Under the pieces are notes generated by a model. That model saw only the letters and a list, made by a program, of their open reading frames with translations, searched no databases and was not told where the DNA came from. Of a stretch of 20,322 nucleotides of DNA, positions 4,209 through 20,322 are shown in pieces. The stretch is from Promethearchaeia archaeon. Its GTDB lineage: Archaea > Asgardarchaeota > Lokiarchaeia > Sigyniarchaeales > SOKP01. Where the stretch lies: contig JAHQWL010000079.1 in assembly GCA_029856155.1 (NCBI GenBank), positions 1 through 20,322 on the forward strand, given 5' to 3'. Numbering within the stretch: position 1 is the first letter of the stretch; each line of letters begins with the position of its first letter. A program made the position numbers and the translations under genes.

Positions 4209-5453
4209 ATGGGTTCTTCTATGCTTGCTCATAGCCTCTTAGAATTATCGAAGGTTGAATTATTAGATAGAGCGAGTCAATTTATTTTTTCGACTGGTTT
4301 AAATGATGGAACCTCAAAGTTATGCAAAGCAAACATGAAATATGGCTTAGCACAGTTCCATTTGATCCAAGAGAAATATGGCTTTGAGCCAAAAGCAACT
4401 TTTATTTCTTCTCCAGATGAAACGATCTCGCGTAATAAATTTAGGTGGAATTCTGGATTAGGGTACGGAGGAAGATTAAACTGGGGTAATGGAAAGGAAA
4501 AATTGATTTTTTTGAATTCCAAACCAAATTGCTGTGGTATCTTAGTAGGCGGCTTGGAAGAATTGCCTGACCCATATAATTTAATTACGAAAATTGATAG
4601 AATAAAATCAGAACCGTTGTATTATGATGATATTTCAATAGATTGGGATTACGGAATATCTAATCATTTTATTAACTGTTTTGAAACAAAGAAATTATCA
4701 GATATAGATCTTCCCCCCTATCTATTTTTAATTCATGGTTCAGCTCCAGAATTTAGAGATGATTGCCATGGAATTGGACTTTATATAGATAAATCAAAAA
4801 TATTGAAAGATATTGCTATTGAAGAAAAAACTAAATTTGGGACACAATATATTTTATTGGATTCAGATGCTGCTGAATATCTTCAATTCAGTAAAAAAGC
4901 TTTAGAATTCTCTAGTTTAAAAAGAGAGATAATAGCTAATAATCTTTTTGATTATGGTTATAAAATTATTTGTAACCAACCGCATCAATTTTTAAAAGAT
5001 TATAATAATATGTACTTAGGAAGTAATTGTACAGATGTTAGTTGTGAATTAATAAATTCAGATAAATTTCCAACAACCCTTAGGGCAGATATCGCAGCGT
5101 ATTTATTTAAAGGAAAAAAAAATCTTTCAGAAACAACACTTAAAAATCAAAATCTCTTAGAAAGAGCAGTCGATTTAGAACTTTTAGATTTATTAACAAA
5201 TGCTAATATTCTCCCACATGGAGGGGGATATTCCTTTAATGATGTTGAAGATGTTTTAGATATATTAGAATATAAAGACCAACGATATTTTGTCACATCT
5301 TTAAAAACAAATACTAGTAGATTAAAAATAATTAGAAATGTTAGCGAGTTACAATTTGAATATAGAGGTCGAGATGTTGTACTTAAAACTATTCAATTAG
5401 ATCTTGGAGAAATTATTGCTCGTTTAAATCCTTTGTTTTCCTTAAAATTATAA
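4209..5453 (+). CDS. Divergent RtcB-superfamily protein (RNA 3'-phosphate ligase fold)
   Basis: RtcB motifs in the correct order: SPD70...GLGYGG, NCC109G, SN152H153F, IH176GS, H259Q, PH337GGG, E380xxxxY385, and C-terminal IIARLNPLFSLK413L. Confidence 0.75.
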   Translation: MGSSMLAHSLLELSKVELLDRASQFIFSTGLNDGTSKLCKANMKYGLAQFHLIQEKYGFEPKATFISSPDETISRNKFRWNSGLGYGGRLNWGNGKEKLIFLNSKPNCCGILVGGLEELPDPYNLITKIDRIKSEPLYYDDISIDWDYGISNHFINCFETKKLSDIDLPPYLFLIHGSAPEFRDDCHGIGLYIDKSKILKDIAIEEKTKFGTQYILLDSDAAEYLQFSKKALEFSSLKREIIANNLFDYGYKIICNQPHQFLKDYNNMYLGSNCTDVSCELINSDKFPTTLRADIAAYLFKGKKNLSETTLKNQNLLERAVDLELLDLLTNANILPHGGGYSFNDVEDVLDILEYKDQRYFVTSLKTNTSRLKIIRNVSELQFEYRGRDVVLKTIQLDLGEIIARLNPLFSLKL

Positions 5454-7512: not shown

Positions 7513-7655
7513 CCTCTCAATTCAAATTTATTAATAAAAAGAATCCTATGCTTAAATAATTTAAACAAATTAAGAATAAATATTTAGTTATTCTAAGTAC
7601 ATTTTAGCTCCCTAACTGCAATTGGGCATTATTTGTAATGAATATGTATTTTTAA

Positions 7656-9194
7656 TTACTCCACTCTTACTATTTCTTTAAATAACCTTTCTATAAATCC
7701 ATCAAAATTATCTGAAGTGAATTCAACATTCAATAGGTGAAGCATAAGTCGAGGAATATAGTCTTCATTTTCATAGATAGGAATAATTTTCATTAAGTCT
7801 TTTTTTCTTAATTGAAATGCAACTTGCCATTCATCTTTTACTGCTTTTGATTTCATTGAATTTTCAGAACAAAAAAGGATGAATATATTACATTTTTTAA
7901 GCGTTTCTTCCATATATTCTACAATATTTGCACTACTATCTGCTTCCCAAAATAAAACTTCTTCAATTTCAGTATAACTTTTTAATTTTTCGACCATTTT
8001 TGAAATTTGGAAGTGTTCTGAGTCCAATGTAGAGTAACTCATAAATATTTTTTTTGGAGCGCCTATTAATGTAGGTATCGGTGCACTTTCTGGAACAACT
8101 TTAGGTTTCCCCAGATATTTCCTTTTAATTAGAATTATACTCCCTATAACTAATACTGAAATTATTAAGGTTGCTATAATAAGATAAACAATATCAATAG
8201 GAAGCATTCTTCCACTCCCACCTGTAGATCCATTACCATCAGATCCACCATTTAAATCTTCGACCATTATTGTATATTGTGCAAAATCTATACTATGTTG
8301 GTTTGGTTCTATTAGAAGAACATAATTACCAGTGATAGATGGACTAAAACTAATATTTTTTGGATAGCTAAGTCCAGTATTGTTTTTGATATTGGTCACT
8401 GTTAAAGGTTCAAATTCAACTAATCTCATATTCAAGATCCCAGATCCAGAGTTTCTATTTAGTATAATATTATAACTTGCTCCAGCTTCCATATAAATAA
8501 AGTAAGCATCTAAATAATCATTTCCAGAAATATCTCCTGTAATCGATGTAATGTCAGTTAAGTTTGTAATTTCCTCATACATAAGGTCGACAATCCACTC
8601 ATATCTATTCTCAATAAAAACTCCAGTTTCATCATAAAAATAGGAATAACCCAAACTAGGCTCATTACCACTAATAAGCACACAATCTGAACGAGGAAGA
8701 TCACTTGAAAACATGATAGCGGGGGTATCATCAATAGCATAGACAGGTCCATGATAATAATTTGTATGCCATGAAGGGCTCGACGTGTAAGGAAGATTGT
8801 ATATAGTACTGTCAACCCACCATTGTGCTGTTTCATTATTAAAATCATCACTAAAAAAAGATATTACCAAATTATACGGTCCGGTTCCATCGCATCTATA
8901 TTTAAACTGGACACCTTTAACAATGACAAACCTTCCAAATGGGATAGGAAATTCAACTATTAAATATTGAAAATCTGAACTAGAATCATAATGAACATAA
9001 GCGTTATCATCTGAAATTTCATCATCATAATTATGTATCCATAGTGTTGGGCTTGATAACCTAAGATTTTTATGAACTGAATCTTGAGAATTGATTAAGG
9101 CATAATTTTCAAAACTGTTCAGCATATATAAATTTAAAAAAATAATTGAAAACCCAATTATGAAAATTTGAATACGTAATGAAATTTTCTTCAT
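7656..9194 (-). CDS. Single-pass membrane receptor-like protein: signal/N-terminal anchor, shared head + PPC-like domain, TM, cytoplasmic TIR domain (catalytic Glu intact)
   Basis: N-terminal basic+hydrophobic segment, PPC-like DYLDAYFI...GNYVLLIEP, Gly/Ser linker, TM IVYLIIATLIISVLVIGSIILI then KRK, TIR KIFMSYS...FILFCSENSMKSKAVKDEW...KIIPI (E455, nt 7830-7832). Confidence 0.85.
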   Translation of the reverse strand: MKKISLRIQIFIIGFSIIFLNLYMLNSFENYALINSQDSVHKNLRLSSPTLWIHNYDDEISDDNAYVHYDSSSDFQYLIVEFPIPFGRFVIVKGVQFKYRCDGTGPYNLVISFFSDDFNNETAQWWVDSTIYNLPYTSSPSWHTNYYHGPVYAIDDTPAIMFSSDLPRSDCVLISGNEPSLGYSYFYDETGVFIENRYEWIVDLMYEEITNLTDITSITGDISGNDYLDAYFIYMEAGASYNIILNRNSGSGILNMRLVEFEPLTVTNIKNNTGLSYPKNISFSPSITGNYVLLIEPNQHSIDFAQYTIMVEDLNGGSDGNGSTGGSGRMLPIDIVYLIIATLIISVLVIGSIILIKRKYLGKPKVVPESAPIPTLIGAPKKIFMSYSTLDSEHFQISKMVEKLKSYTEIEEVLFWEADSSANIVEYMEETLKKCNIFILFCSENSMKSKAVKDEWQVAFQLRKKDLMKIIPIYENEDYIPRLMLHLLNVEFTSDNFDGFIERLFKEIVRVE

Positions 9195-9226
9195 TTTTAC
9201 TTAATTGATACTATTATTTTAGATTT

Positions 9227-11626
9227 TTAACGTCTTAAAATTTCTTTATAAAGATTTTGAATGAAGCCTTCAAAATCATCATTGGTATATTTAACATTTA
9301 ACATCGGCATCAACATATAGGGAATAAATTTTTCTTCTTCATGCACAGGAATAATTTTCATGACTTCCTTTTTCTGTAACTGAAATGCAGCTTGCCATTG
9401 ATCCTTCACGTCCCTAGATTTTTCAGAATTTTCAGAGCAAAATATTATAAATACATTTGAATTTTGTAGTGCTTCTTCCATCAATTCTACTACATTTTGA
9501 TAACTTTTCTCTTCCCAATAAAAAACTTTATCTATTTCTGGATATTCTTCTAAAGCTTTTGCTATTTTTGCTAAATTAAAATTTTCAGAATCATCAACTG
9601 AAAAACATAAAAATATTTTTAATTTTCGTTCTATATGTGGTTCAAGTACTGCTTCCTGTGTTTGTATACTTTGTTCAGTTTCTATAACTAATTCAATATG
9701 TTCTGATTTTTCTCCAGTTCCCATTTTTATCTTTCCTAATCTAATAGCTATCATTATTAAAACAGCCAAAGCAAGTAATGATATTAAAATTATAATAAAT
9801 AACCTAACATACTCATAAGGTGTATTATCTCCACTCGGAGGAGAAATAAAAACGTTACTTTCTATAACGTTTCCCACACAATTTATCTCTTTAATGTTTT
9901 CCTCATTATTTAAGAATTCATTAAACTTTACAATATTATAATCAGATTCATAAAAATAAATTCCAAATTGATTATGTTTTATTGAATTTTCAATTATAAT
10001 GTTGTGAGAGCTTAATAATAGGTAAATTCCCGCGTGAAAATTTCCATTTATAGAATCATAATTTAATTTTATAGTGATATTATGACTATTAATCAATTTA
10101 ATCCCATTCCATCCGTTATCATAGATAAAACTGCCTATAATTGTAATATTATGACAATCTATCAAAATAATACCGTTGCCATTATAAACGTACGTGTTAT
10201 TAGAAAGAACACCATTAGATACATTAAACAATTTAATACCAGCACTATCAGAATTATATAATGATTCTTGAAACTCACAATAAATCATTTGAAAGTATTT
10301 TATAGAATTTCTAATTTCAATACAACTGCTAAGATTATTTCCATCTATCCACAAATTTTGAAGGATGTAAGGATCACTATCAGTCCCAGATCCAGAACAC
10401 CAATTTTTATCCGCCATTTCTGCCCATGTATAATCCGCATTTCCTAAATCATCAATTATAAAGGGTGATTGCGGAAGAGGTTGACTCTCTACGTAAATAT
10501 AATTAGTTTTATATTCATAGTCTGTTTCGTTGTTTTTATCTTTAATCCATAAGCTTACTGAAAAGTATCCTGTTGAATTATATTGATGAATAGGGTTTTC
10601 TAAAGTGGAGTTTGTTGAACCATCTCCAAAATTCCATTGGTAAGTAGTCGGTGTAGTTCCATCATTACCTGTAAATTCAAATTGAATCCAATCTCCCATA
10701 ACAATATAAGTTTCATTTGCTGTAAAATCTGCTAAAGGCATACTTTCATCATAATATCTGATAGAATAATCTGCTATATCGGTTGCAGGATTATTTGGTT
10801 CCACTAATAATATATAGGTTGCAGAACTTAAAGGTGTGTAGCTCATATATTCTGGATCAGATGTTCCGCTTGATAGAGCTAGCACATCGTTAGTAAGATC
10901 TTGATAAGTTACTAAACGCATATCAAGGTTACCTGACCCAGAAGTACGTTCAAGTTTGAATTCATAAGTGATACCTGCCGATAGAGTTACAAAATAAGCA
11001 TCTACAAAATCAGTGTCTGTTATACTTCCTTCATATTTTTGTTTAATGTTCATTGTTATAATCCATTCATAAATGAGTTCGACAATATATTCATAATTAG
11101 GATCAACTGTCCACCCACTACCAACATCATACCAGCTGTTACCGATACTCGGGGTATCACCACAGAGTGCAATACAATCATCTGAGGGATCCATTCCTAT
11201 AAAACGTACCCATGGATTATCATCAATAAGATAAGTAGGTCCTAAGCAACGAAAAGTCCTCCAAGTAGGAGTAAGCCCCACATCAGGAATTCCTAAATCT
11301 AAATATCCAACCCAAAAACTATCACCTTCAAAACGTATCTCCACATCGTAAGGTCCTGTTCCAGGTCCATAGTTAACATACCTATATCTTACTCCTGTAC
11401 TAATAAGGGAGCCTTCAAATAAATTATAATAGATTGCTAAGTTTTCCATATCTCCGTATGTGTCATCGTTTACAACATAAGCCGCTTCATGAGTAGTATC
11501 ATCAAAATTACCCGCATGTCTGGCGGGAGTTGCAGTTCCATTAATGATATAATTTGGTAAAATAATTATAATCAAAGTAAAGGTTAAGATTGAAACTTTT
11601 AATAACTTTAAGTCTAGAGTTTTCAT
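9227..11626 (-). CDS. Single-pass membrane receptor-like protein: signal peptide, shared head + PPC-like domain, PKD, NosD/CASH beta-helix, TM, TIR domain with Glu->Gln
   Basis: PKD WNFGDG...NPIHQY, GSGTDSDPYIL lead-in with GIxL-x2-S-x-N beta-helix repeats, TM LFIIILISLLALAVLIMIAI, TIR KIFLCFS...FCSENSEKSRDVKDQW (Q743, nt 9398-9400). Confidence 0.85.
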   Translation of the reverse strand: MKTLDLKLLKVSILTFTLIIIILPNYIINGTATPARHAGNFDDTTHEAAYVVNDDTYGDMENLAIYYNLFEGSLISTGVRYRYVNYGPGTGPYDVEIRFEGDSFWVGYLDLGIPDVGLTPTWRTFRCLGPTYLIDDNPWVRFIGMDPSDDCIALCGDTPSIGNSWYDVGSGWTVDPNYEYIVELIYEWIITMNIKQKYEGSITDTDFVDAYFVTLSAGITYEFKLERTSGSGNLDMRLVTYQDLTNDVLALSSGTSDPEYMSYTPLSSATYILLVEPNNPATDIADYSIRYYDESMPLADFTANETYIVMGDWIQFEFTGNDGTTPTTYQWNFGDGSTNSTLENPIHQYNSTGYFSVSLWIKDKNNETDYEYKTNYIYVESQPLPQSPFIIDDLGNADYTWAEMADKNWCSGSGTDSDPYILQNLWIDGNNLSSCIEIRNSIKYFQMIYCEFQESLYNSDSAGIKLFNVSNGVLSNNTYVYNGNGIILIDCHNITIIGSFIYDNGWNGIKLINSHNITIKLNYDSINGNFHAGIYLLLSSHNIIIENSIKHNQFGIYFYESDYNIVKFNEFLNNEENIKEINCVGNVIESNVFISPPSGDNTPYEYVRLFIIILISLLALAVLIMIAIRLGKIKMGTGEKSEHIELVIETEQSIQTQEAVLEPHIERKLKIFLCFSVDDSENFNLAKIAKALEEYPEIDKVFYWEEKSYQNVVELMEEALQNSNVFIIFCSENSEKSRDVKDQWQAAFQLQKKEVMKIIPVHEEEKFIPYMLMPMLNVKYTNDDFEGFIQNLYKEILRR

Positions 11627-11680
11627 TTATTTTTGAATCCCTTTATTCTTTAATTTTGATCTACCACTAATTTTAGACTC

Positions 11681-14600
11681 CTACTTTCTGAATTTTTTTC
11701 TAATAAGAATTAAAGTTAATAGAGAAATTAAACCGATTATTAATAAATTGTACCCTGGAATTGCTCCAGAACCTGTTGTAGGACTGTATGCAAGCTCCTT
11801 AATTACAATTAATTCCACATATCCTTGGTTTCCAGAAGTATCTAGTACATAAAATTCAATGGTCGATTGTCCCTCAGGCAATGCATCCCATAGAGTCTCA
11901 TCAATTACACCTATCAGATCTGTAATCACATACGTAGTGATACCCCCATCTAAAGTATACCAGATGCTTTGTAATCCATATTCTTCTATACTAATATCAT
12001 CAATAGATATATAATAAGCGGGGGAAAACTTTCCGAAAGATTGATTGTATTCGGGAGCTAAAATCGTAATAGTGGGTGCAATTGTATCTCTGACATGGAT
12101 AATAAAAGAACCATTTTCAAAATTGTTATATATATCATATACTCGAACCTCTAATGAATAAGTACCTAATGATAAAGGATTGAAATTTACAATCACTCCA
12201 TCATCATTAATAATGAAATGAGTTGTATCATTTATCCACCAATGATCAAATGCCGAAAGATCTGAAGCATTTAAATCTAATCTAAATAAGTTTCCGTATT
12301 CAAGAATTTGATTTGTAATAATTTCAGGGTCAAAAGTGGGGGCTGTTGTATCTTGGACTGTAATAGTTATAATAGTATTGCAATATGTATTATATAGGTT
12401 ATAAGCTCTTACTTGTAGCCAATATATTCCAATAGATAAGGGTAAAGCATTAATAATTGTCCCATTTCCGGATATTTGAAAGTTTAAGGTATCATTTATC
12501 CACCATTGATAAATACCCCAAATACTCGAAGCATTTAGATCATATATTAAATTGTTACCATACTCTACGACTTGATCGATTGGAATTTGATCCCAAATTG
12601 GGGGTGAAGTGTCCTGTACTGTAATCTTTATGATAGCACTACAATTCAAACCGTACGGATCATATGCTATAATTTCCAGCCAATATTGTCCTATAAATAA
12701 GGTGGTAATATTAGTAATAATACCATTTCCATCAATATTAAAATTAGAGGTATCATTAATCCACCATTGATAAATCCCAGAGAGATCAGTAGCGTTTAGA
12801 TCATAATTGAATTTGTCGCCAAACTTTATAGATTGGTCTATGGGATTTTGATCCCAACTTGGAGGTGTTGTATCCCGTACTGTAATCTTAATGATAGCAC
12901 TACAATTCAAACCATAAGGATCATATGCTATAATTTCCAGCCAATATTGTCCTATAAATAAGGTGGTAATATTAGTAATAATACCATTTCCATCAATATT
13001 AAAATTAGAGGTATCGTTAATCCACCATTGATCAATTCCTGAAAAATCTGAAGCATTTAAATTAAAAATAAAGTAGGAGCCTAATTCAATAGTTTTATCA
13101 GAAGGTATCTGTATCCAAATTGGGGGTGTTGTATCCTGTACTGTAATCTTTATGAAAGCACTACAATTCAAACCATAAGGATCATATGCTATAATTTCCA
13201 ACCAATATTGTCCTACTAATAATGAAGTAATATTAGTTATAACACCATCTCCATCTATATTAAAATTAGAGGTATCGTTAATCCACCATTGATCAATTCC
13301 AGAGAGATCTGAAGCATTTAAATTATAAATAAAGTAGGAGCCTAATTCAATAGTTTTATCAGAAGGTATCTGAATCCAAATTGGGGATGTTGTATCCTGT
13401 ACTGTAATCTTTATGAAAGCACTACAATTCAAACCATAAGGATCATATACTATAATTTCCAGCCAATATTGTCCTATAAATAAGGTGGTAATATTAGTAA
13501 TAATACCATTTCCATCAATATTAAAATTAGAGGTATCGTTAATCCACCATTGATCAATTCCAGAGAAATCAGTAGCGTTTAAATCATAATAAACTCCGGA
13601 TCCCAACTCTAAGGCTTGATCAGTAGGAATTTGATCCCAAGTCGGTGGTGTAGTGTCTTGTACTGTAATTTTCAAAAAAGAAGATAGAACATTATCATAC
13701 GAATCATTTACTTGAATTTTTAACTGATATATTCCCATGGAAAGAAATGAATTGTTGCTAATGACACCATTCGAATCAATTTGAAAGTCAATTGTATCAT
13801 TAATCCACCAATGATCTATTCCAGAAGGATCAGTGGCATTTAAGTCATAATAAAGGGGATTCCCAAATTCTATAAATTGATTAGAAGGTATTTGAATCCA
13901 AGTAGGAGGCGTTGTATCTAATACACCTTCACTCATAAAAAATATAAAATGGGTAACTTGTTTTCCTTCCGAATCAGAGCCATCCCAAATAATCTCATCA
14001 TAACCATCTCCATTTATATCCCTTACTCTTAACCTCAAGTCATAATAGTGATTGTAATATATTTTATCTAATTTAATTTCAATTGGATCACCAAAAGAAG
14101 TCCCAAGCCAAGAGTAAATTCGAATAACATCGGTCCAATATTGATTACTCCCCGAATCAGGACAAAAAAAGCTTACATATCTTCCATATAAATCATTAGA
14201 AAATAGTTTTCCCACTCCATACATAGAATTTTGGTTTGATACTTGTTTGACTAATTGTTGATAAGAAAAACTACTAGTAGAAGAATCATAAATAATAATG
14301 TACCGATAATTATCAATCCATGTACTTGCCATCCCAACAACTAAATCTTCATTACCATCTCCGTTAAGATCTTCATGATCATCGAATTGGTCTAGAAATG
14401 TTGGATCCCGGTTGAGCCAATATTCCTTTAATAAAGAATAAGAATGAGAAGAATCATCATAGATCCTAATTCCACCATCGAACCCACTGTTATATCCCCA
14501 ACTATAAACAATCTCATCGAAATTATCTCCATCTATATCAATCATCGTAGCATCAGCTATCCCATCCCAACCTTGTGTGGAAGGATCATCAAAAGATTTT

Positions 14601-16426
14601 AATTCTTCAAATCCAGTACCATTATATGAAATTACACGTCTTCTTCCCTCATGACCACCATATGCAATTCCATTATCTGCATAAACAAATTCTTCTTTAC
14701 CGTCATTGTCTAGATCGCCAAAACAAATTTTGCCACGGTCGTCGTAACCGGTATCCCAAATGTTTTCAAGACTTAGAATTTTTGATTCCCAATCATAATA
14801 ATAAAAATAATAATCATAACTAGTAGCAGGCATTCCAACTAATTCATTTATTCCATCTCCATCATAATCTCCAAATTCATAAACTGAAATAGGAATATTA
14901 TCATAAAATTCGCAATCATTTCCAGTAAATGTGTATATAGAGGTTTCATAATTAGGCATATGCCTAATTAGTTCTAATTTACCATCATTATTAAGATCAA
15001 TAAAATTAAAATTTTTTCTTTCACTCGCATCATTTTCCCATGTTACATTAAAATCAATCGCATAATCACTAAATGGATCAGAATAAAAACTTATACTTGT
15101 TGAATTCATAGTGATAATATCGTGTGCTGGAGCTGATGGATTACCATAATAAGCGCTTACTGATATTACTTCAAAATTTAAAACTTGTGTCGGTTTTGAA
15201 TAATCACCTAGTCCATAGACTCCTAATGAATCGTTATCAAGTATAACTAAATGAAAAATTTCAGGATCGTAAAAGGGATTTCCTAGAAATTCTGGTTTTC
15301 TCGTCCATTTAATACCAGAAAGACTCCCTATTAATGTTCCACTATTAAGATAATACGTACGTAGAACTCCTTCATCATCATGGGCGGCATATCCATTTCC
15401 TTGATCATCAATATAATATATGGGATCTCCAGATCTCGTATACCCAGAAACCCAAATGTTGCTACCATCACTTCCACTCAACAACTGGAAATCATCATTT
15501 CCATCTCCATTTTGTGGAGTCACTAAAATATCAAAAAAACCATCACTATCTTGATCTGGACAAACAGCTTCACCCCAAGAATCAAAACCAATATCTCCTG
15601 AAGTCCAAACTAATGAACCATTTGCACCACTCCAACAATGAATTCTATCAACATAATTTGCACCTGTGATGATATCCCATATATTATCTCCATCTATATC
15701 TGGGATTGGGTTAAGATGGGGGTTTGTACTATATGGATCTGATTGTGAATAATAATTTGACCAAATCATTGTCTTGTCGCTGGAGTTTAATATGCCATAG
15801 GATTTGTCGTTTCTACTCATAATAATTTCGGGCTTACCATCTCCCGTAAAATCCTCAATTAATGCTTGTGGAATATTTGTCGATCCGAAAGGCTCTCCAA
15901 CATATAAAATTTTACCTGTTTTACCGTCTAAAATCCCCATACTATTATTTTGGAAACATCCAATGACGTCCATTACACCATCGAAATTCTCATCATAAAA
16001 GGCTGGAAAATACCAACCCATCTCTCCACGAGACCTTAATATTTTGCCATCATATGTTGTTAGATAAGCATAGAAATAATCTTTAGACCAAAGAATATTC
16101 CCGTCATGATCAAAAACAGTGGTATTCCAATTCGAACTTATACTGGTTGTAACAATAATATCATCAAAGCCATTATCATTCAGATCAGGGTATATTATGA
16201 AATTACCCCAATCTAATGTTGTTCCAAAATTTTTTGTCCATTTTTCTACATATTGCAAAGATGATCCATTTGAGGGATTTAAATCTGAATTTGAATGGAA
16301 CTTATCCATATTTTTATTTAAATTAAAATCTATAAGTGAATAAATTTGAAAAATGAGGATAAAAGATAAGAAGAGAAAAACTAAATTTGATTTATGGGAT
16401 CTAAAATATCTATATTTTCCAGTCAT
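11681..16426 (-). CDS. Large surface adhesin-like protein: two FG-GAP/VCBS-type beta-propellers, 7 Ig-like repeats, terminal Ig-like domain, Loki-CTERM-like anchor
   Basis: About 11 DxD/NxDGxxD/E-hh Ca-binding loops (e.g. DFTGDGKPEII, GDYDGDGINELV, GDLDNDGKEEFV, RDINGDGYDEII), DTTPPxW repeats, and C-terminal IPGYNLLIIGLISLLTLILIRKKFRK. Confidence 0.85.
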   Translation of the reverse strand: MTGKYRYFRSHKSNLVFLFLSFILIFQIYSLIDFNLNKNMDKFHSNSDLNPSNGSSLQYVEKWTKNFGTTLDWGNFIIYPDLNDNGFDDIIVTTSISSNWNTTVFDHDGNILWSKDYFYAYLTTYDGKILRSRGEMGWYFPAFYDENFDGVMDVIGCFQNNSMGILDGKTGKILYVGEPFGSTNIPQALIEDFTGDGKPEIIMSRNDKSYGILNSSDKTMIWSNYYSQSDPYSTNPHLNPIPDIDGDNIWDIITGANYVDRIHCWSGANGSLVWTSGDIGFDSWGEAVCPDQDSDGFFDILVTPQNGDGNDDFQLLSGSDGSNIWVSGYTRSGDPIYYIDDQGNGYAAHDDEGVLRTYYLNSGTLIGSLSGIKWTRKPEFLGNPFYDPEIFHLVILDNDSLGVYGLGDYSKPTQVLNFEVISVSAYYGNPSAPAHDIITMNSTSISFYSDPFSDYAIDFNVTWENDASERKNFNFIDLNNDGKLELIRHMPNYETSIYTFTGNDCEFYDNIPISVYEFGDYDGDGINELVGMPATSYDYYFYYYDWESKILSLENIWDTGYDDRGKICFGDLDNDGKEEFVYADNGIAYGGHEGRRRVISYNGTGFEELKSFDDPSTQGWDGIADATMIDIDGDNFDEIVYSWGYNSGFDGGIRIYDDSSHSYSLLKEYWLNRDPTFLDQFDDHEDLNGDGNEDLVVGMASTWIDNYRYIIIYDSSTSSFSYQQLVKQVSNQNSMYGVGKLFSNDLYGRYVSFFCPDSGSNQYWTDVIRIYSWLGTSFGDPIEIKLDKIYYNHYYDLRLRVRDINGDGYDEIIWDGSDSEGKQVTHFIFFMSEGVLDTTPPTWIQIPSNQFIEFGNPLYYDLNATDPSGIDHWWINDTIDFQIDSNGVISNNSFLSMGIYQLKIQVNDSYDNVLSSFLKITVQDTTPPTWDQIPTDQALELGSGVYYDLNATDFSGIDQWWINDTSNFNIDGNGIITNITTLFIGQYWLEIIVYDPYGLNCSAFIKITVQDTTSPIWIQIPSDKTIELGSYFIYNLNASDLSGIDQWWINDTSNFNIDGDGVITNITSLLVGQYWLEIIAYDPYGLNCSAFIKITVQDTTPPIWIQIPSDKTIELGSYFIFNLNASDFSGIDQWWINDTSNFNIDGNGIITNITTLFIGQYWLEIIAYDPYGLNCSAIIKITVRDTTPPSWDQNPIDQSIKFGDKFNYDLNATDLSGIYQWWINDTSNFNIDGNGIITNITTLFIGQYWLEIIAYDPYGLNCSAIIKITVQDTSPPIWDQIPIDQVVEYGNNLIYDLNASSIWGIYQWWINDTLNFQISGNGTIINALPLSIGIYWLQVRAYNLYNTYCNTIITITVQDTTAPTFDPEIITNQILEYGNLFRLDLNASDLSAFDHWWINDTTHFIINDDGVIVNFNPLSLGTYSLEVRVYDIYNNFENGSFIIHVRDTIAPTITILAPEYNQSFGKFSPAYYISIDDISIEEYGLQSIWYTLDGGITTYVITDLIGVIDETLWDALPEGQSTIEFYVLDTSGNQGYVELIVIKELAYSPTTGSGAIPGYNLLIIGLISLLTLILIRKKFRK
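12089..13918 (-). repeat. Intragenic tandem repeat, 7 units of 261 nt (87 aa; last unit 264 nt)
   Basis: Asp codon of the DT(T/S) unit start recurs at 13918, 13657, 13396, 13135, 12874, 12613 and 12352. The central four units are near-identical at DNA level. Confidence 0.92.
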
Positions 16427-16485
16427 TTTGAATCACTATTTTGGAATTCTTTAAATTCTAGTTAATTTTTTTTAAGGCTATTTTA

Positions 16486-16499
16486 TTTTATATAAAAAA
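16486..16499 (-). promoter_or_regulatory. T-tract overlapping a TATA-like palindrome (possible terminator of the upstream gene and/or promoter of the 1581-aa gene)
   Basis: Minus strand reads TTTTTTATATAAAA 5 nt after the stop at 16505, about 60 nt before the ATG at 16426. Confidence 0.3.
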
Positions 16500-16504
16500 C
16501 ATTT

Positions 16505-19108
16505 CTAACTAATTTTTTTTCTAAAAAACAAATTTTTACATTTTAATATTTTCAAAATAAGGATAATGCTGATAAGAGATATTGTTCCTATAATAAGATT
16601 TAAATCATATCCTGGAATTCCAGGGGGTGATGACGCAGGCATATCATCTGAGGAAAGATCTTTTACTATTATAACATCTTTATAACAAGACCTCTCCTCA
16701 ATATCTTGAGCATAAAAGCTTATTGTTATATGCCCTTCTGGTAAAGCATCCCAGACAGTCTGATCAATAAGATCTGTCAATATAGTGATATAATAAACAG
16801 TAGTTCCACCATTTAATGTATACCAGATCAAATCAATATCATCACCAATAATAGAGATACTATATGCAGGAGCATATCGTCCATATACAGCATTCATCTC
16901 CGGATTATTTATATCTATTGATAATTGAATAACTTCGACAAGAATATAATTTATTAATGTAAGATTGTCAGAATCTCCATTAAAATCTATAATAATTAGG
17001 GAGACTGAATATGTACCTGGAATACTATAAATATGGATAGGATTTTTTTCAGTAGAAATTAGACTTCCATCCCCAAAGTCCCATTCGAATGTAGCGGGAG
17101 TATTACCTTCGCTTCCTATGAATGTGAATTGGACACTTTCATCAACATCTATAATTGTTTCATCAGCAATGAAATTAGCAATAGGACTAATATCTGCTAT
17201 TACAGAAATCAAATTTATTTTCATTTCAATATCTATATCACCATCAATATCTGTTAACGTTAAAGTAACGGTAAAATTATCAACAGTATTGTAATAATGG
17301 TGAGGATTCTGTTCATTAGAAGTAGGACTTCCATCACCAAAATCCCAAAGAAAGATTGTAGGGAGATTGCCAATATTCCCGATAAATATGAAATTAACCC
17401 ATCCCTCTCCTATCAACAAGCTTGTATTTACATTAAAATCAGCATTTGGTAATAAATCGATATCCACGACAACATAATCCATGTGCGCATCAAAATCACC
17501 ATTATTATCTGTTACATTTAATATTATCCAGAATAAACCCGATGAATTGTATTGATGTATAGGATTTTTTTCTGTAGAAATTGGACTACCATCTCCAAAG
17601 TTCCATTGAAATGTAGCGGGAGCAGTTCCTTCAGTTCCAGTAAAATTAAATTGTACCCATTGACCCTCTATAATTTCTGTTCGATTAGCAGTAAAATTAG
17701 CTATTGGTAATTCATTGAGATTTACTGTTATATAATCAATTTTCTCAATAAAATCAGAATCACCATTTCGATCAGTGACAAGTAGACTAACATTATAAAT
17801 ACCAACATCTGAATATTGGTGTGATGGATTTTGTTCACTCGAAGTAGGAGTACCATCTCCAAAATCCCACAAATATATAGCAGGAGCATTTCCTTCACTT
17901 CCTGTGAAGTTGAACTGGACAATTTCGCTCTGGGAAATATTAATTTCATTAGCTGAAAAATCTGCAATAGGTACTAAATCAGCTTCGACTGTAATATAAT
18001 TTGTTTTCACTTCATTATCAATATCACCATCATTATCAGTAACAGTAAGATCAACTGTGTAATTTCCAGCTGAAGTATATTGGTGAATAGGATTTTTATC
18101 TGTAGATGTAGGAGTACTATCCCCAAAATCCCATAAATAAGTTGTTGGAGTATTACTCTCAGAACCATTAAAAGTGAATTGGACCGACTCACCTTCTAGT
18201 ATTATGGTTGCATTTGAAGTAAAATCTGCAATAGGTGTTGGTTCAATATAATAACGAATTGAATAGTCTGCTGTGTCGTTATTGGGTATATTAGGTTCAA
18301 TAAGTAATACATAAGTATCAGTACTGGAGGGTGTATATGTCATATACTCCGGATCCGAAGATCCGCTTGATTGAGCTAGTACATTATTAGTTAGATCTTG
18401 ATTTACAACTAACCTCATATTAAGATTCCCTAAACCTGAAGTGCGATCAAGCTCGAATTCATACTCTACTCCACTAGTTAATGTTACAAAATAAGCATCT
18501 ACATAATCGGATGTTGTTATACTTCCTGTCGTTGTGGTATCAATATTTAAATTTACCACCCATTCATATAGAAGATCTACTAAATATTCATAAAAATTGT
18601 CTAAAATCCAACTTCCACCGATGTTATAATAACTATGACCATTACTGGGTTCTGTCGCACATATAGAGGGGCAATTACTTGATGTATCTATTCCAATACA
18701 ATAAACTACGGGATCATCATCTAAAAGATAAGTTGGACCCATACATCTAAATGTTCTCCAAGTATCGCTGATAACATGATCAATATTTAAATCTTGATAT
18801 CCTACCCAGAATGATTCTCCTTCAAATATGATTTCCATATTTGTAGGATTGCTTCCGACATTATTATGCATATATCTAATTCCTGTACAAATAACTGTTC
18901 CTTCACCCATATTATAAGTAATGGCTAAATATTCCATAGCTGAAGGATTATCATAAAATACCATCCATCGAGCATTTACATATTCATCATCATAATTCCA
19001 TCCTCGTCTACCAGTTGTTGCAATTCCTGTTTTTAACAAATTTGAGAATAAAAGACAAGAAATAGTAAAAATTAAAAAAATTGACAAATTTTGTTTTTTT
19101 ATTCTAAT
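16505..19108 (-). CDS. Surface protein: signal peptide, shared head + PPC-like domain, 5 PKD domains, Ig-like domain, Loki-CTERM-like anchor (no TIR)
   Basis: Head aligns with those of 9227-11626 and 7656-9194. Five W(D/N)FGD PKD units; C-terminal IPGYDLNLIIGTISLISIILILKILK. ORF-track start is TTG 19087; an in-frame ATT at 19108 behind GGTGA is proposed here. Confidence 0.85.
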   Translation of the reverse strand: MRIKKQNLSIFLIFTISCLLFSNLLKTGIATTGRRGWNYDDEYVNARWMVFYDNPSAMEYLAITYNMGEGTVICTGIRYMHNNVGSNPTNMEIIFEGESFWVGYQDLNIDHVISDTWRTFRCMGPTYLLDDDPVVYCIGIDTSSNCPSICATEPSNGHSYYNIGGSWILDNFYEYLVDLLYEWVVNLNIDTTTTGSITTSDYVDAYFVTLTSGVEYEFELDRTSGLGNLNMRLVVNQDLTNNVLAQSSGSSDPEYMTYTPSSTDTYVLLIEPNIPNNDTADYSIRYYIEPTPIADFTSNATIILEGESVQFTFNGSESNTPTTYLWDFGDSTPTSTDKNPIHQYTSAGNYTVDLTVTDNDGDIDNEVKTNYITVEADLVPIADFSANEINISQSEIVQFNFTGSEGNAPAIYLWDFGDGTPTSSEQNPSHQYSDVGIYNVSLLVTDRNGDSDFIEKIDYITVNLNELPIANFTANRTEIIEGQWVQFNFTGTEGTAPATFQWNFGDGSPISTEKNPIHQYNSSGLFWIILNVTDNNGDFDAHMDYVVVDIDLLPNADFNVNTSLLIGEGWVNFIFIGNIGNLPTIFLWDFGDGSPTSNEQNPHHYYNTVDNFTVTLTLTDIDGDIDIEMKINLISVIADISPIANFIADETIIDVDESVQFTFIGSEGNTPATFEWDFGDGSLISTEKNPIHIYSIPGTYSVSLIIIDFNGDSDNLTLINYILVEVIQLSIDINNPEMNAVYGRYAPAYSISIIGDDIDLIWYTLNGGTTVYYITILTDLIDQTVWDALPEGHITISFYAQDIEERSCYKDVIIVKDLSSDDMPASSPPGIPGYDLNLIIGTISLISIILILKILKCKNLFFRKKIS
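16935..18240 (-). repeat. Five tandem PKD domains (~86-88 aa each)
   Basis: P(I/N)A(D/N)F...W(D/N)FGD(G/S)...NP(I/S/H)HxY...D(x)xGD repeated five times; diverged at DNA level. Confidence 0.9.
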
Positions 19109-19115
19109 TTGATTT

Positions 19116-19170
19116 TCACCGAGATTAAATCTTTTTATTGTGTATTACTATAATGTCAATATATAAAAAT
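19116..19170 (-). promoter_or_regulatory. Putative archaeal promoter (TATA) and SD-like GGTGA for the surface cluster's first gene
   Basis: Minus strand GAAACATTTTTATATA near 19160-19175 and GGTGA at 19120-19116. Spacing fits a start site near 19135. Confidence 0.45.
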
Positions 19171-19313
19171 GTTTCATATGAAGAAAAATCTTTAATAGAG
19201 TTTTGAATTAAAAATAATCTTATTTACGGATTTTTAGATATGTAATAAAAATTATAGACTCTATAATACTAGTAATAACCTCCTCAATTAATTTGAAAAT
19301 TGAGCATTCATAC

Positions 19314-19336
19314 TAATTTCTAAAGGTTAGAAATTA
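19314..19336. promoter_or_regulatory. Perfect 10-bp inverted repeat TAATTTCTAA-AGG-TTAGAAATTA
   Basis: Read directly from sequence. Lies 45 nt past the stop of the vWA gene and upstream of the surface-cluster promoter. Confidence 0.4.
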
Positions 19337-19381
19337 TTCTTTATTATATCTACAATAGAAATAAATATTTGTGGTGATAAT

Positions 19382-20322
19382 CTAATTATTAATAATTTTT
19401 GCCCCACAAAATCTACATGCCTTAATTTCTTTATTCATTTTTTGAAGACAAGGTTCATGATAATACGCATTACAATTTTCACATTGATAAACTTTAAAAT
19501 CTCCTAAAAAAATGCTATGGCAATAGGAACATGATGCGTTAATTTGATCGATTTTTTCTTCAGGTATTAAGCTCATTTTTGTATTGGATAATTCATCCTC
19601 ATCTACAATTATTATACCTTGAGATAATTCTTCTTTATCTTTGACTAATTTTAAAGCGGCTGCTGGAATCGATAGAAGAAAGAAGCAGAAAGGGCATCTG
19701 AACACATTTTCGCTGTATTCTGTTTTTTTAGCCCACATAGCTGCACAAGATAAATGCATTACGCGATCACAATTGGGGCAAAAACGGCCCTCACTGAAGA
19801 AATCAGCACCTGTAACTGCCGCTTTAACAGAATGGCAGATTTGGCACTTTTTTTGTCCTCGATCCCTCCCTCCTATCATTAACCTAATATCTAATAAAGA
19901 TGGTCTTCTTAATGGTAAGGCAATCTCACTGACAAGAGGGGCAATAGTATCTTTTTTATCTGGGGAAAAATAATCTATGCCTTCTTTCACATCTTTCTTT
20001 GAAGCGAACGCTTTACCTGCAGAAATTATTGATTTAGTATCATTAAAATATCCATATTCTCCTCCAGTTTTTTGGGTTATTCTCTTTAAAGAATTTTCTC
20101 CATATTCTTGTTTACCTCCTAATTGGCAAGCATCAATAAACACACTCAAACCCTTAGCAATTTCAATCATTTTTACTAATTTGTTAGTATCAGTGTTTAA
20201 TTTGTTATCAGTAATTATAAAAATACGCGGTATTTTTCCCCCAATTTTACGCATTTCCTCAACAAGAATTTGTAAAGCGAATGCAATCCCTTCATGTAAA
20301 TATCCCCGTCCCGAAATTTGAA
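19382..20322 (-). CDS. vWA-domain protein with two C4HC3 (RING-variant/PHD-like) zinc fingers; TFIIH p34/p44-like; 5' truncated by window
   Basis: Frame stays open upstream of the ATG at 20254 to the window edge (QISGRGYLHEGIAFALQILVEE-M). vWA elements RIFIITD, VFIDACQLG, LKRITQKTGGEY. Fingers CQIC..CPNC-x4-H-x2-C..CPFC and CSYC..CENC-x4-H-x2-C..CRFC. Confidence 0.75.
   Translation of the reverse strand, partial: QISGRGYLHEGIAFALQILVEEMRKIGGKIPRIFIITDNKLNTDTNKLVKMIEIAKGLSVFIDACQLGGKQEYGENSLKRITQKTGGEYGYFNDTKSIISAGKAFASKKDVKEGIDYFSPDKKDTIAPLVSEIALPLRRPSLLDIRLMIGGRDRGQKKCQICHSVKAAVTGADFFSEGRFCPNCDRVMHLSCAAMWAKKTEYSENVFRCPFCFFLLSIPAAALKLVKDKEELSQGIIIVDEDELSNTKMSLIPEEKIDQINASCSYCHSIFLGDFKVYQCENCNAYYHEPCLQKMNKEIKACRFCGAKIINN

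What the first reader, a model, noticed from the sequence alone, without database searches (positions are those of the whole stretch)
7656..19108. Candidate archaeal Toll/IL-1R-like receptor system: active TIR receptor, pseudo-TIR receptor, TIR-less paralogue and FG-GAP adhesin in one cluster
Seen: four co-directional genes with short gaps (32, 54, 78 nt). Three share the same extracellular head; two continue into TM + cytoplasmic TIR and one ends in a CTERM anchor. Known: ectodomain-TM-TIR is the topology of animal TLR/IL-1R, which use co-receptors and TIR-less decoys, and prokaryotic TIRs are oligomerisation-activated NADases in immunity (e.g. Thoeris ThsB, TIR-SAVED). Inference: an extracellular ligand (virus, partner cell, glycan) clusters the heads and switches on TIR NAD+ cleavage or signal synthesis, tuned by the other members. 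TIR domains as such already occur in archaeal annotations; the receptor/pseudo-receptor/decoy arrangement is what looks new.
Basis: partly seen in the sequence, partly recalled or inferred. Interest (0 to 1): 0.92.

Follow-up and report, generated by a model that had tools for sequence, protein, structure and literature searches.

The report
Asgard membrane TIR pair, one disabled
An accessory gene island of a Loki-type Asgard archaeon carries two neighbouring surface receptors with a lectin-like head outside and a TIR signalling domain inside; one TIR keeps its catalytic glutamate and the other has lost it in two species, like paired plant immune receptors, while the two flanking genes look like ordinary anchored surface proteins rather than decoys.

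Summary
The anatomy is confirmed: four minus-strand genes, gaps 78/54/32 nt; three share a lectin-like jelly-roll + PPC head; two continue into one membrane helix and a cytoplasmic TIR. Both receptors belong to a multi-copy Promethearchaeota family of ectodomain-TM-TIR proteins with swappable ectodomains. I found it in no paper searched, but this scan has already reported it on other DNA, including three more copies in this genome. Specific to this window: the second TIR has E743Q and a beta-A Tyr-to-Phe change, against E in 68/68 and Y in 67/68 other members. Both changes recur in a second species (TIR 71% identical, dN/dS 0.26), beside the intact receptor with the same 32-nt gap. The 11.8-kb block is an accessory island absent from four congeners. 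The decoy reading is weak: most of about 70 head-bearing proteins have no TIR, those with readable context have no TIR neighbour, and heads swap between anchored and TIR genes. 'Active' is unproven: the family lacks the WxxxE tryptophan of cyclising TIRs. Best model: ligand clustering switches on the E-TIR; the Q-TIR tunes it. No activity, ligand, interaction or immune role is shown.

The parts
7656..9194 (-). E-TIR receptor, 512 aa: N-terminal hydrophobic export segment, jelly-roll head, PPC/collagen-binding-type domain, one membrane helix, 23-aa linker, TIR with E455
   Evidence: orthologue 73% identical in GCA_048939845.1
7662..8054 (-). TIR domain of the E-TIR receptor; FxSYS motif intact, E455 (GAA, 7832-7830), Ala at the WxxxE tryptophan position
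8127..8183 (-). membrane helix of the E-TIR receptor, followed by KRK
8259..9053 (-). shared head module: jelly-roll beta-sandwich (about 160 aa) plus PPC domain (about 105 aa); 86% and 77% identical in the second species
9227..11626 (-). Q-TIR (pseudo-TIR) receptor, 799 aa: export segment, head, PPC, one PKD, NosD-type beta-helix, one membrane helix, TIR
   Evidence: orthologues P0005/P0016 60% identical
9233..9625 (-). disabled TIR: Q743 (CAA, 9400-9398) for the family Glu, Phe for the beta-A Tyr, Val for the following Thr, Lys for the Asp of the loop after beta-B
9743..9799 (-). membrane helix of the Q-TIR receptor
10751..11536 (-). head + PPC of the Q-TIR receptor; head 85% identical to that of a TIR-less anchored protein (P0018) but only 58% to the head of its own orthologue, so it was exchanged
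11681..16426 (-). 1581-aa surface protein: FG-GAP repeats, about six 87-aa (261-nt) tandem repeats, PG[YF]-helix-basic (Loki-CTERM-type) anchor; its counterpart in the second species is a mosaic with concanavalin-like domains
16505..19108 (-). TIR-less surface protein: head, PPC, five PKD domains, Loki-CTERM-type anchor; non-ATG start (ATT 19108 or TTG 19087)
   Evidence: homologue P0019 passes NF033507 Loki-CTERM
7612..19391 (.). accessory island between a vWA/PHD-finger gene and metG; the flanks are joined directly in congeners G080, G067, G034 and G047; no integrase in it
7601..7611 (-). GGAGCTAAAAT, relic of the vWA/PHD gene's 3' end at the metG-side border (9/11 with 19405-19395)
19395..19405 (-). 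GGGGCAAAAAT, the other copy of the imperfect border repeat, inside the last codons of the vWA/PHD gene

Best explanation
The block is an accessory island of surface genes. Its core is a receptor pair from a Promethearchaeota family of single-pass ectodomain-TM-TIR proteins. Shown: topology, family membership, loss of catalytic residues in one partner, conservation of the pair in two species, head swapping. Inferred: (1) the jelly-roll + PPC head binds a multivalent extracellular polymer, most likely a glycan on a partner cell, particle or virus; (2) binding clusters the 512-aa receptor, whose TIR assembles and cleaves NAD+, probably to linear ADP-ribose or another non-cyclic product because the WxxxE tryptophan is missing; (3) the 799-aa receptor cannot cleave NAD+ but keeps the TIR fold, joins the assembly and restrains or gates it, with an exchangeable head adding a second specificity, as sensor TIRs do in plant pairs; (4) the product may be read in trans by the RelA/SpoT-TPR-SLOG protein encoded on contig C92. 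The TIR-less and FG-GAP genes are ordinary anchored surface proteins; the TIR-less one belongs to the pool with which the receptors exchange heads, and need not be a decoy.
For: Topology. Family: TIR clade at E <= 1e-50 in 29 of 135 family genomes; ectodomains vary (NosD/beta-helix 30, Peripla_BP_6 6, SBP_bac_5 5 of 38). Glu position aligns with the alpha-C Glu of a solved TIR; top fold match is the NADase Cat1 (Z 15.3, rmsd 1.8, 117 aligned; tied with RPS4/RRS1, TRR-2 and MyD88). Pseudo-TIR: E 68/68 and Y 67/68 in other members, Q and F in both Q-TIRs; TIR is the best-conserved part of that gene (71%, dN/dS 0.26). Pair: same order and 32-nt gap in GCA_048939845.1; near-identical strains also have a gene ending 32 nt upstream (sequences not readable). 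Head fold: Cwp84 lectin-like domain Z 12.7, rmsd 2.9, 140 aligned; ColG collagen-binding domain Z 14.6, rmsd 1.8, 100 aligned. Head swap: TIRs of the two Q-receptors are sisters (96/100), their heads are not (AU p 1.6e-31); dS of the head is twice that of the TIR. Effector: RelA_SpoT-TPR-SLOG gene recurs in 10 TIR loci, and all 15 genomes with a close orthologue hold the TIR clade. Precedent: sensor TIRs of paired plant NLRs lack the Glu (PMC13732033).
Against: No activity, ligand, transcript or interaction was measured. The Q-TIR is known from two lineages only and was not found in 160 other class genomes. An E-TIR orthologue (P0025) stands without it, so the pair is not obligatory. Loss of the WxxxE aromatic is also seen in TIRs with no activity in vitro. 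Jelly-roll matches include capsid and phage-tail proteins at the same Z (13.1, 11.3), so 'lectin' is only likely. The SLOG gene is not beside this cluster, was not found in 14 of the 29 TIR-positive genomes, and its co-occurrence partly reflects physical linkage and kinship. dN/dS rests on one pair of sequences.
Confidence: 0.5

Rival explanations
1. The four genes are independent surface proteins gathered on an island by tandem duplication and domain shuffling. The Q-TIR receptor works alone, or with any of the other four TIR receptors of the genome, or is slowly decaying; its position next to the E-TIR gene only records descent.
For: Island status and patchy presence; tandem TIR receptor arrays in which all members keep Glu (L048, L085); E-TIR orthologue without the Q-TIR; another copy in this genome is frameshifted (C82), so turnover is fast.
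Against: The Q-TIR reading frame is intact in both species at dS about 0.6, its TIR is the most conserved domain (dN/dS 0.26), and the changes cluster at catalytic positions.
Confidence: 0.25
2. The family signals as scaffolds, as animal TLR TIRs do: clustering recruits cytoplasmic or 4-TM TIR proteins of the same clade (LRR-PCI-TIR, 4TM-PCI-TIR), and NAD+ cleavage is minor. The E-to-Q change would then matter little.
For: WxxxE Trp absent family-wide; soluble LRR-PCI-TIR and 4-TM TIR proteins carry the same TIR clade; scaffold TIRs tie for top fold match.
Against: Glu, the beta-A Ser-Tyr pair and Cys-Ser are nearly invariant; a SLOG nucleotide-binding gene recurs beside the family; Box 2/3 motifs of scaffold TIRs are absent.
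Confidence: 0.15
3. One reading: a co-transcribed four-part TLR/IL-1R-like immune unit with active receptor, pseudo-receptor, TIR-less decoy and adhesin co-receptor acting on one ligand.
For: Short gaps and common strand; all three head copies of the genome lie together; three of the four genes are linked in a second species; the four are gained or lost as a block.
Against: TIR-less head proteins are the majority state and occur without TIR neighbours; the E-TIR head is only about 35% identical to the other two and lies on a separate branch, so a common ligand is doubtful; the FG-GAP gene has a different architecture in the second species; no defence genes nearby.
Confidence: 0.15
4. The E-TIR is a direct killing effector: virus attachment clusters it and NAD+ is drained (abortive infection); the Q-TIR prevents self-activation.
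For: Non-cyclising TIRs such as Cat1 deplete NAD+ (established knowledge; top fold match); variable island and swapped heads fit an arms race.
Against: Many relatives carry nutrient-binding (Venus-flytrap, SBP_bac_5) heads and sit among housekeeping genes at stable loci; five receptors per genome able to kill on an outside cue would be costly (inference).
Confidence: 0.2

Closest known systems
Animal Toll/TLR and IL-1R family (with SIGIRR/IL-1R8 and the decoy IL-1R2, from own knowledge)
   Same: Single-pass type-I layout: ectodomain, one helix, cytoplasmic C-terminal TIR; multigene family with varied ectodomains (PMC7075850).
   Different: No LRR or IL-1R-type Ig ectodomain; no Box 2 or Box 3; TIR keeps NADase-type residues; 12-20% identity to the animal TIR structures matched; no MyD88/death-domain pathway tested or expected. 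Most likely convergent.
Paired plant TIR-NLRs (Arabidopsis RRS1/RPS4, CHS3/CSA1)
   Same: Adjacent genes, one TIR with and one without the catalytic Glu; the Glu-less partner carries the variable recognition part (PMC13732033).
   Different: Membrane-spanning with outside heads; no NB-ARC or LRR; genes are head-to-tail, not divergent; hetero-oligomer not shown.
Thoeris (ThsB TIR plus SLOG-type effector ThsA)
   Same: TIR sensor plus a SLOG-containing protein that recurs beside family members; weak ThsB hits.
   Different: Sensor is outside the cell; no effector in this operon; the candidate reader is RelA/SpoT-TPR-SLOG, not SIR2-SLOG; no aromatic at WxxxE, which all cyclising TIRs have.
Cat1, TIR-SAVED, TIR-STING, SPARTA (ligand-assembled NAD+-depleting TIR effectors)
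   Same: Closest fold (Cat1 Z 15.3, 24% identity); activation by assembly is the inferred mechanism.
   Different: Those bind cytoplasmic nucleotides or nucleic acids; these have glycosylated extracellular heads and a membrane helix.
Loki-CTERM sorting-domain surface proteins (NCBIfam NF033507)
   Same: The TIR-less and FG-GAP genes end in the same IPGY-helix-basic signal; homologue P0019 passes the model.
   Different: The two window proteins themselves were not listed by the model at E <= 0.05; membership rests on the motif and on the homologue.

Membership tests
TIR domain (TIR_2, PF13676) | profile score above cut-off and flavodoxin-like TIR fold | tested here: met
   49.6 and 49.0 bits against 28; model pLDDT 91, top matches all TIR
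NAD+-cleaving TIR enzymes | catalytic Glu in alpha-C (E-TIR, 7656-9194) | tested here: met
   E455; aligns with the alpha-C Glu of 9m0n
NAD+-cleaving TIR enzymes | catalytic Glu in alpha-C (Q-TIR, 9227-11626) | tested here: not met
   Q743 here and in the orthologue
NAD+-cleaving TIR enzymes | NAD+ turnover on oligomerisation | not testable with these tools
   needs an assay
cADPR-isomer-producing TIRs (Thoeris ThsB type) | aromatic residue at the WxxxE position | tested here: not met
   Ala 56, Ser 12, Asp 1, Tyr 1 of 70; rule from 10.1101/2022.05.07.491051
Thoeris | effector gene (SIR2-SLOG, TM-Macro or other) in the same operon | tested here: not met
   neighbours are surface proteins, metG and a vWA/PHD gene; a SLOG gene lies on another contig
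Thoeris | anti-viral protection | not testable with these tools
   needs infection assays
Animal TLR / IL-1R | type-I topology with C-terminal cytoplasmic TIR | tested here: met
   (hydropathy, sequons, positive-inside; no SignalP/DeepTMHMM available)
Animal TLR / IL-1R | LRR (TLR) or Ig (IL-1R) ectodomain | tested here: not met
   heads are jelly-roll, PPC, PKD and beta-helix; the single PKD is Ig-like in fold but another family
Animal TLR / IL-1R | Box 2 (RDxxPG) and Box 3 (FW) motifs | tested here: not met
   absent from alignments A2 and A6; definition in PMC7075850
Animal TLR / IL-1R | TIR descends with the animal receptor clade | not tested
   no animal rows in my tree; fold scores are tied across plant, animal and bacterial TIRs
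Paired TIR receptors (RRS1/RPS4 type) | adjacent genes, one with and one without the catalytic Glu, linkage conserved | tested here: met
   two species; one E-TIR orthologue lacks the partner
Paired TIR receptors (RRS1/RPS4 type) | NB-ARC and LRR domains | tested here: not met
Paired TIR receptors (RRS1/RPS4 type) | the two proteins form a complex and need each other | not testable with these tools
   needs co-purification and co-expression
Loki-CTERM surface proteins | C-terminal PG[YF] motif, membrane helix, basic tail | tested here: inconclusive
   motif present in both TIR-less genes; NF033507 hit only for homologue P0019
TIR-less decoy receptor (IL-1R2 type) | arose from, and shares the ligand of, the signalling receptor; occurs only with it | tested here: not met
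   TIR-less state is the majority and occurs without TIR neighbours; shared ligand itself not testable

The most novel reading that the evidence does not exclude
A prokaryotic outside-in TIR pathway run by a heteromeric receptor pair: a catalytically dead membrane TIR with a recombination-renewed head gates an enzymatic membrane TIR, the anchored paralogue serves as head reservoir and competitor, and a non-cyclic NAD-derived signal is read by a RelA/SpoT-TPR-SLOG protein. It would be a Toll-like receptor layout and a sensor/executor pair evolved independently in Asgard archaea.
Probability: 0.25. Interest if true: 0.9.

Novelty: new variant of a known kind. Interest (0 to 1): 0.68.

Why it matters
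All characterised prokaryotic TIR systems that I know of, or met in the papers read, sense inside the cell; surface receptors with a cytoplasmic TIR are taken to be an animal trait. A family of such receptors in the archaea closest to eukaryotes shows that the layout can be assembled from ordinary surface-protein parts, and offers a way to study how Asgard cells sense partners, substrates or viruses. This locus adds a natural active/disabled pair and a short 512-aa member, which make the central questions directly testable in E. coli or in vitro: does the TIR cleave NAD+, into what, and does a dead partner control it. The weight is limited by the rarity of the pair (two lineages) and by the family having been noted elsewhere in this scan.

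Tried and rejected
Metagenome scans for more Q-TIRs found none: empty; the 20 pattern hits are chance (no tblastn match); one search gave one ordinary clade member. No relative in viral contigs. Promoter scan at chance level and of the wrong type for archaea. PADLOC gave only weak TIR hits. Atlas searches for the head gave unnamed, mostly viral clusters at 0.92-0.93 and PPC-containing proteins: leads only. Ten literature searches returned no description of Asgard TM-TIR receptors; four Asgard/immunity papers read do not mention them; subscription papers and asCOG tables were not searchable. Rejected: sequencing error or fresh pseudogene for E743Q (conserved CAA in a second species); TIR outside the cell; conserved Asgard-wide four-gene operon; the island as a self-mobile element (no integrase seen). 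I did not equate the Asp lost after beta-B with the plant BB-loop Asp, since the alignment there is uncertain.


Full report
Setting. The window is a whole 20.3-kb contig (C79) of a 4.1-Mb, 30% GC genome. Close relatives of its TIR genes come from Promethearchaeota (Loki-type Asgard) assemblies.

Observation. The four genes, their strand and the gaps of 78, 54 and 32 nt are as described. In reading order: a head-PPC-5xPKD protein with a C-terminal anchor and no ATG start; a 1581-aa FG-GAP protein with 261-nt repeats and the same kind of anchor; a 799-aa head-PPC-PKD-beta-helix-TM-TIR protein; a 512-aa head-PPC-TM-TIR protein. The head occurs nowhere else in the genome. The TIRs face the cytoplasm: sequons lie only before the helix, basic residues after it, and 41 of 41 long family members obey the same rule.

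The receptors belong to a larger family. The genome has three more ectodomain-TM-TIR genes of the same TIR clade, with beta-helix or Venus-flytrap heads, one frameshifted inside the TIR. The clade scores E <= 1e-50 in 29 of 135 family genomes; a few weaker hits lie elsewhere in the class and almost none beyond it among 400 phylum genomes. Among 38 full-length members the ectodomains include NosD/beta-helix (30), Peripla_BP_6 (6), SBP_bac_5 (5), FN3, LVIVD and WD40; at a single locus the ectodomain length varies from about 1000 to 2200 aa while the tail stays. Neighbours are mostly housekeeping and surface genes, not defence genes. Earlier notes of this scan report the same family on other DNA; I had reached it independently.

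The pseudo-TIR is real. Of 70 clade TIRs, 68 have Glu at the alpha-C position and two have Gln: this gene and its orthologue; the search pattern allowed either residue. The same two rows replace the beta-A Tyr (67/68) by Phe, the next Thr (64/68) and the Asp after beta-B (60/68). The orthologue lies in GCA_048939845.1 in the order FG-GAP gene, Q-TIR, E-TIR, metG, with the same 32-nt gap; its metG is 83.5% identical to the window's. Between the two species the Q-TIR domain is 71% identical, the highest in the gene, with dS 0.59 and dN/dS 0.26; the E-TIR has 79% and 0.16. The domain is therefore kept while its catalytic residues are lost. Limits: two lineages only; none in 160 other class genomes; the E-TIR orthologue P0025 has no Q-TIR upstream.

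'Active' is not shown. E455 aligns with the catalytic position of a solved TIR and the model matches NADase and scaffold TIRs about equally (Cat1 Z 15.3, RPS4/RRS1 14.7, Hydra TRR-2 14.7, MyD88 14.6). The WxxxE position is Ala or Ser in 68 of 70, whereas all cyclising TIRs have an aromatic there and TIRs without it make linear ADPR or are inactive (10.1101/2022.05.07.491051). A cyclic ADPR signal is thus unlikely; a non-cyclic product is the better guess.

The head. The model (pLDDT 88) has two beta-sandwiches. The first is a jelly roll like the lectin-like domain of Cwp84 (Z 12.7), a PBCV-1 capsid protein (13.1), phage tail-tip domains and, weakly, CBM35 (8.2); the second matches the ColG collagen-binding/PPC domain (14.6). 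Binding of a glycan or other polymer is likely but inferred.

The decoy reading is weak. A profile search found about 70 proteins with this head: 32 end in an anchor, 13 in other cytoplasmic tails, 10 in a TIR (four lineages), 17 are partial or unclassified. Anchored ones with readable context have no TIR neighbour, and the genome has 25 proteins with this anchor. So the TIR-less form is the common state, and TIRs were added to it. Heads move between the forms: the Q-receptor's head is 85% identical to that of the anchored P0018 and 58% to its own orthologue's; synonymous divergence of head and PPC is twice that of the TIR; the two Q-TIRs are sisters but their heads cannot be held together (AU p 1.6e-31). 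The E-receptor's head, in contrast, is stable (86%) and only about 35% identical to the other two. The FG-GAP gene is also a mosaic between the two species.

The block is an island. In G080 (metG 92-94% identical), G067, G034 and G047 the vWA/PHD gene directly precedes metG; window 7612-19391 is missing. An imperfect 11-bp repeat of the vWA/PHD 3' end marks the borders (modest evidence in AT-rich DNA). The carrier GCA_048939845.1 is more distant than non-carriers G080 and G067, which needs repeated loss or spread by recombination through the flanks.

A possible reader. A RelA_SpoT-TPR-SLOG gene recurs in 10 of the TIR loci; this genome has it at the end of contig C92 (69% identity). All 15 genomes with a close orthologue hold the TIR clade, but 14 TIR-positive genomes lack a hit, and linkage and kinship inflate the association.

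Mechanism, with my odds per step: topology and family 0.95; Q-TIR catalytically impaired and maintained 0.8; E-TIR cleaves NAD+ when clustered 0.6; Q-TIR controls the adjacent E-TIR 0.5; SLOG protein reads the product 0.35; TIR-less gene is a decoy 0.15; role in anti-viral defence rather than partner or substrate sensing 0.4.

Comparison. It is laid out like TLR/IL-1R but fails their defining ectodomain and Box 2/3 features. It resembles paired plant TIR-NLRs, where the sensor lacks the Glu (PMC13732033), without NB-ARC or LRR. It resembles Thoeris in TIR-plus-SLOG logic without an operonic effector. It is a member of none. Ten searches and the Asgard defence papers read gave no description of such receptors; subscription literature was not covered.

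Verdict. Observation confirmed, interpretation partly supported. New variant of a known kind; interest 0.68. The solid, window-specific result is a conserved active-type/disabled pair of membrane TIR receptors with an exchangeable head on an accessory island.

Noticed in passing
G000:C82:62346-67651 (L003): A fifth ectodomain-TM-TIR gene of the same clade is frameshifted about 20 residues into the TIR; orthologues at the same locus are intact.
   Followed up: partly
G000:C92:82820-85420 (L117:10818-13388): RelA_SpoT-TPR-SLOG gene, the recurrent neighbour of this TIR family elsewhere; its upstream side is cut by the contig end.
   Followed up: partly
L082:7578-9191 and homologues in L048, L055, L071, L074, L075, L079, L094: An unannotated 530-550-aa gene (no Pfam family over cut-off) lies directly beside TIR genes of different sub-clades in 8 loci; no homologue was found in this genome.
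   Followed up: partly
L048 (JBHLOC010000007.1): Array of five TIR genes of this clade, four of them consecutive, all with the catalytic Glu.
   Followed up: partly
G000:C31:38178-39854 and C52:89592-92093: Two soluble LRR-TIR genes of a different TIR clade; a further TIR_2 hit at C4:33709-34038.
   Followed up: no
window 19382-20322: vWA-type protein with C1/PHD/RING-like zinc fingers, cut by the contig end (about 400 aa in congeners); conserved upstream of metG, and the island sits at its 3' end.
   Followed up: partly
window 4209-5453: 414-aa gene with no Pfam match, conserved next to metG in congeners; His/Asp/Cys-rich motifs suggest a metal-dependent enzyme (RtcB-like by eye, untested).
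   Followed up: no
window 19087-19120: The TIR-less gene has no ATG; an ATT 8 nt behind GGTGA gives a normal signal-peptide n-region, suggesting a non-canonical start.
   Followed up: partly
proteins P0029, P0056, P0059, P0063, P0031, P0035, P0071: The same head is also joined through one helix to other cytoplasmic tails (zinc ribbons, TPR-like helical repeats, LRR), so it serves several receptor types.
   Followed up: no
P0030 (L106): Head-PPC-TM receptor with a helical, HEPN/Swt1-like segment (by eye) between helix and TIR, convergent on a PKD-repeat gene like the window's TIR-less gene.
   Followed up: no
window 12652-13593: Middle 261-nt repeats of the FG-GAP gene are 89-94% identical in DNA, the outer ones 65-70%: recent expansion or homogenisation.
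   Followed up: no
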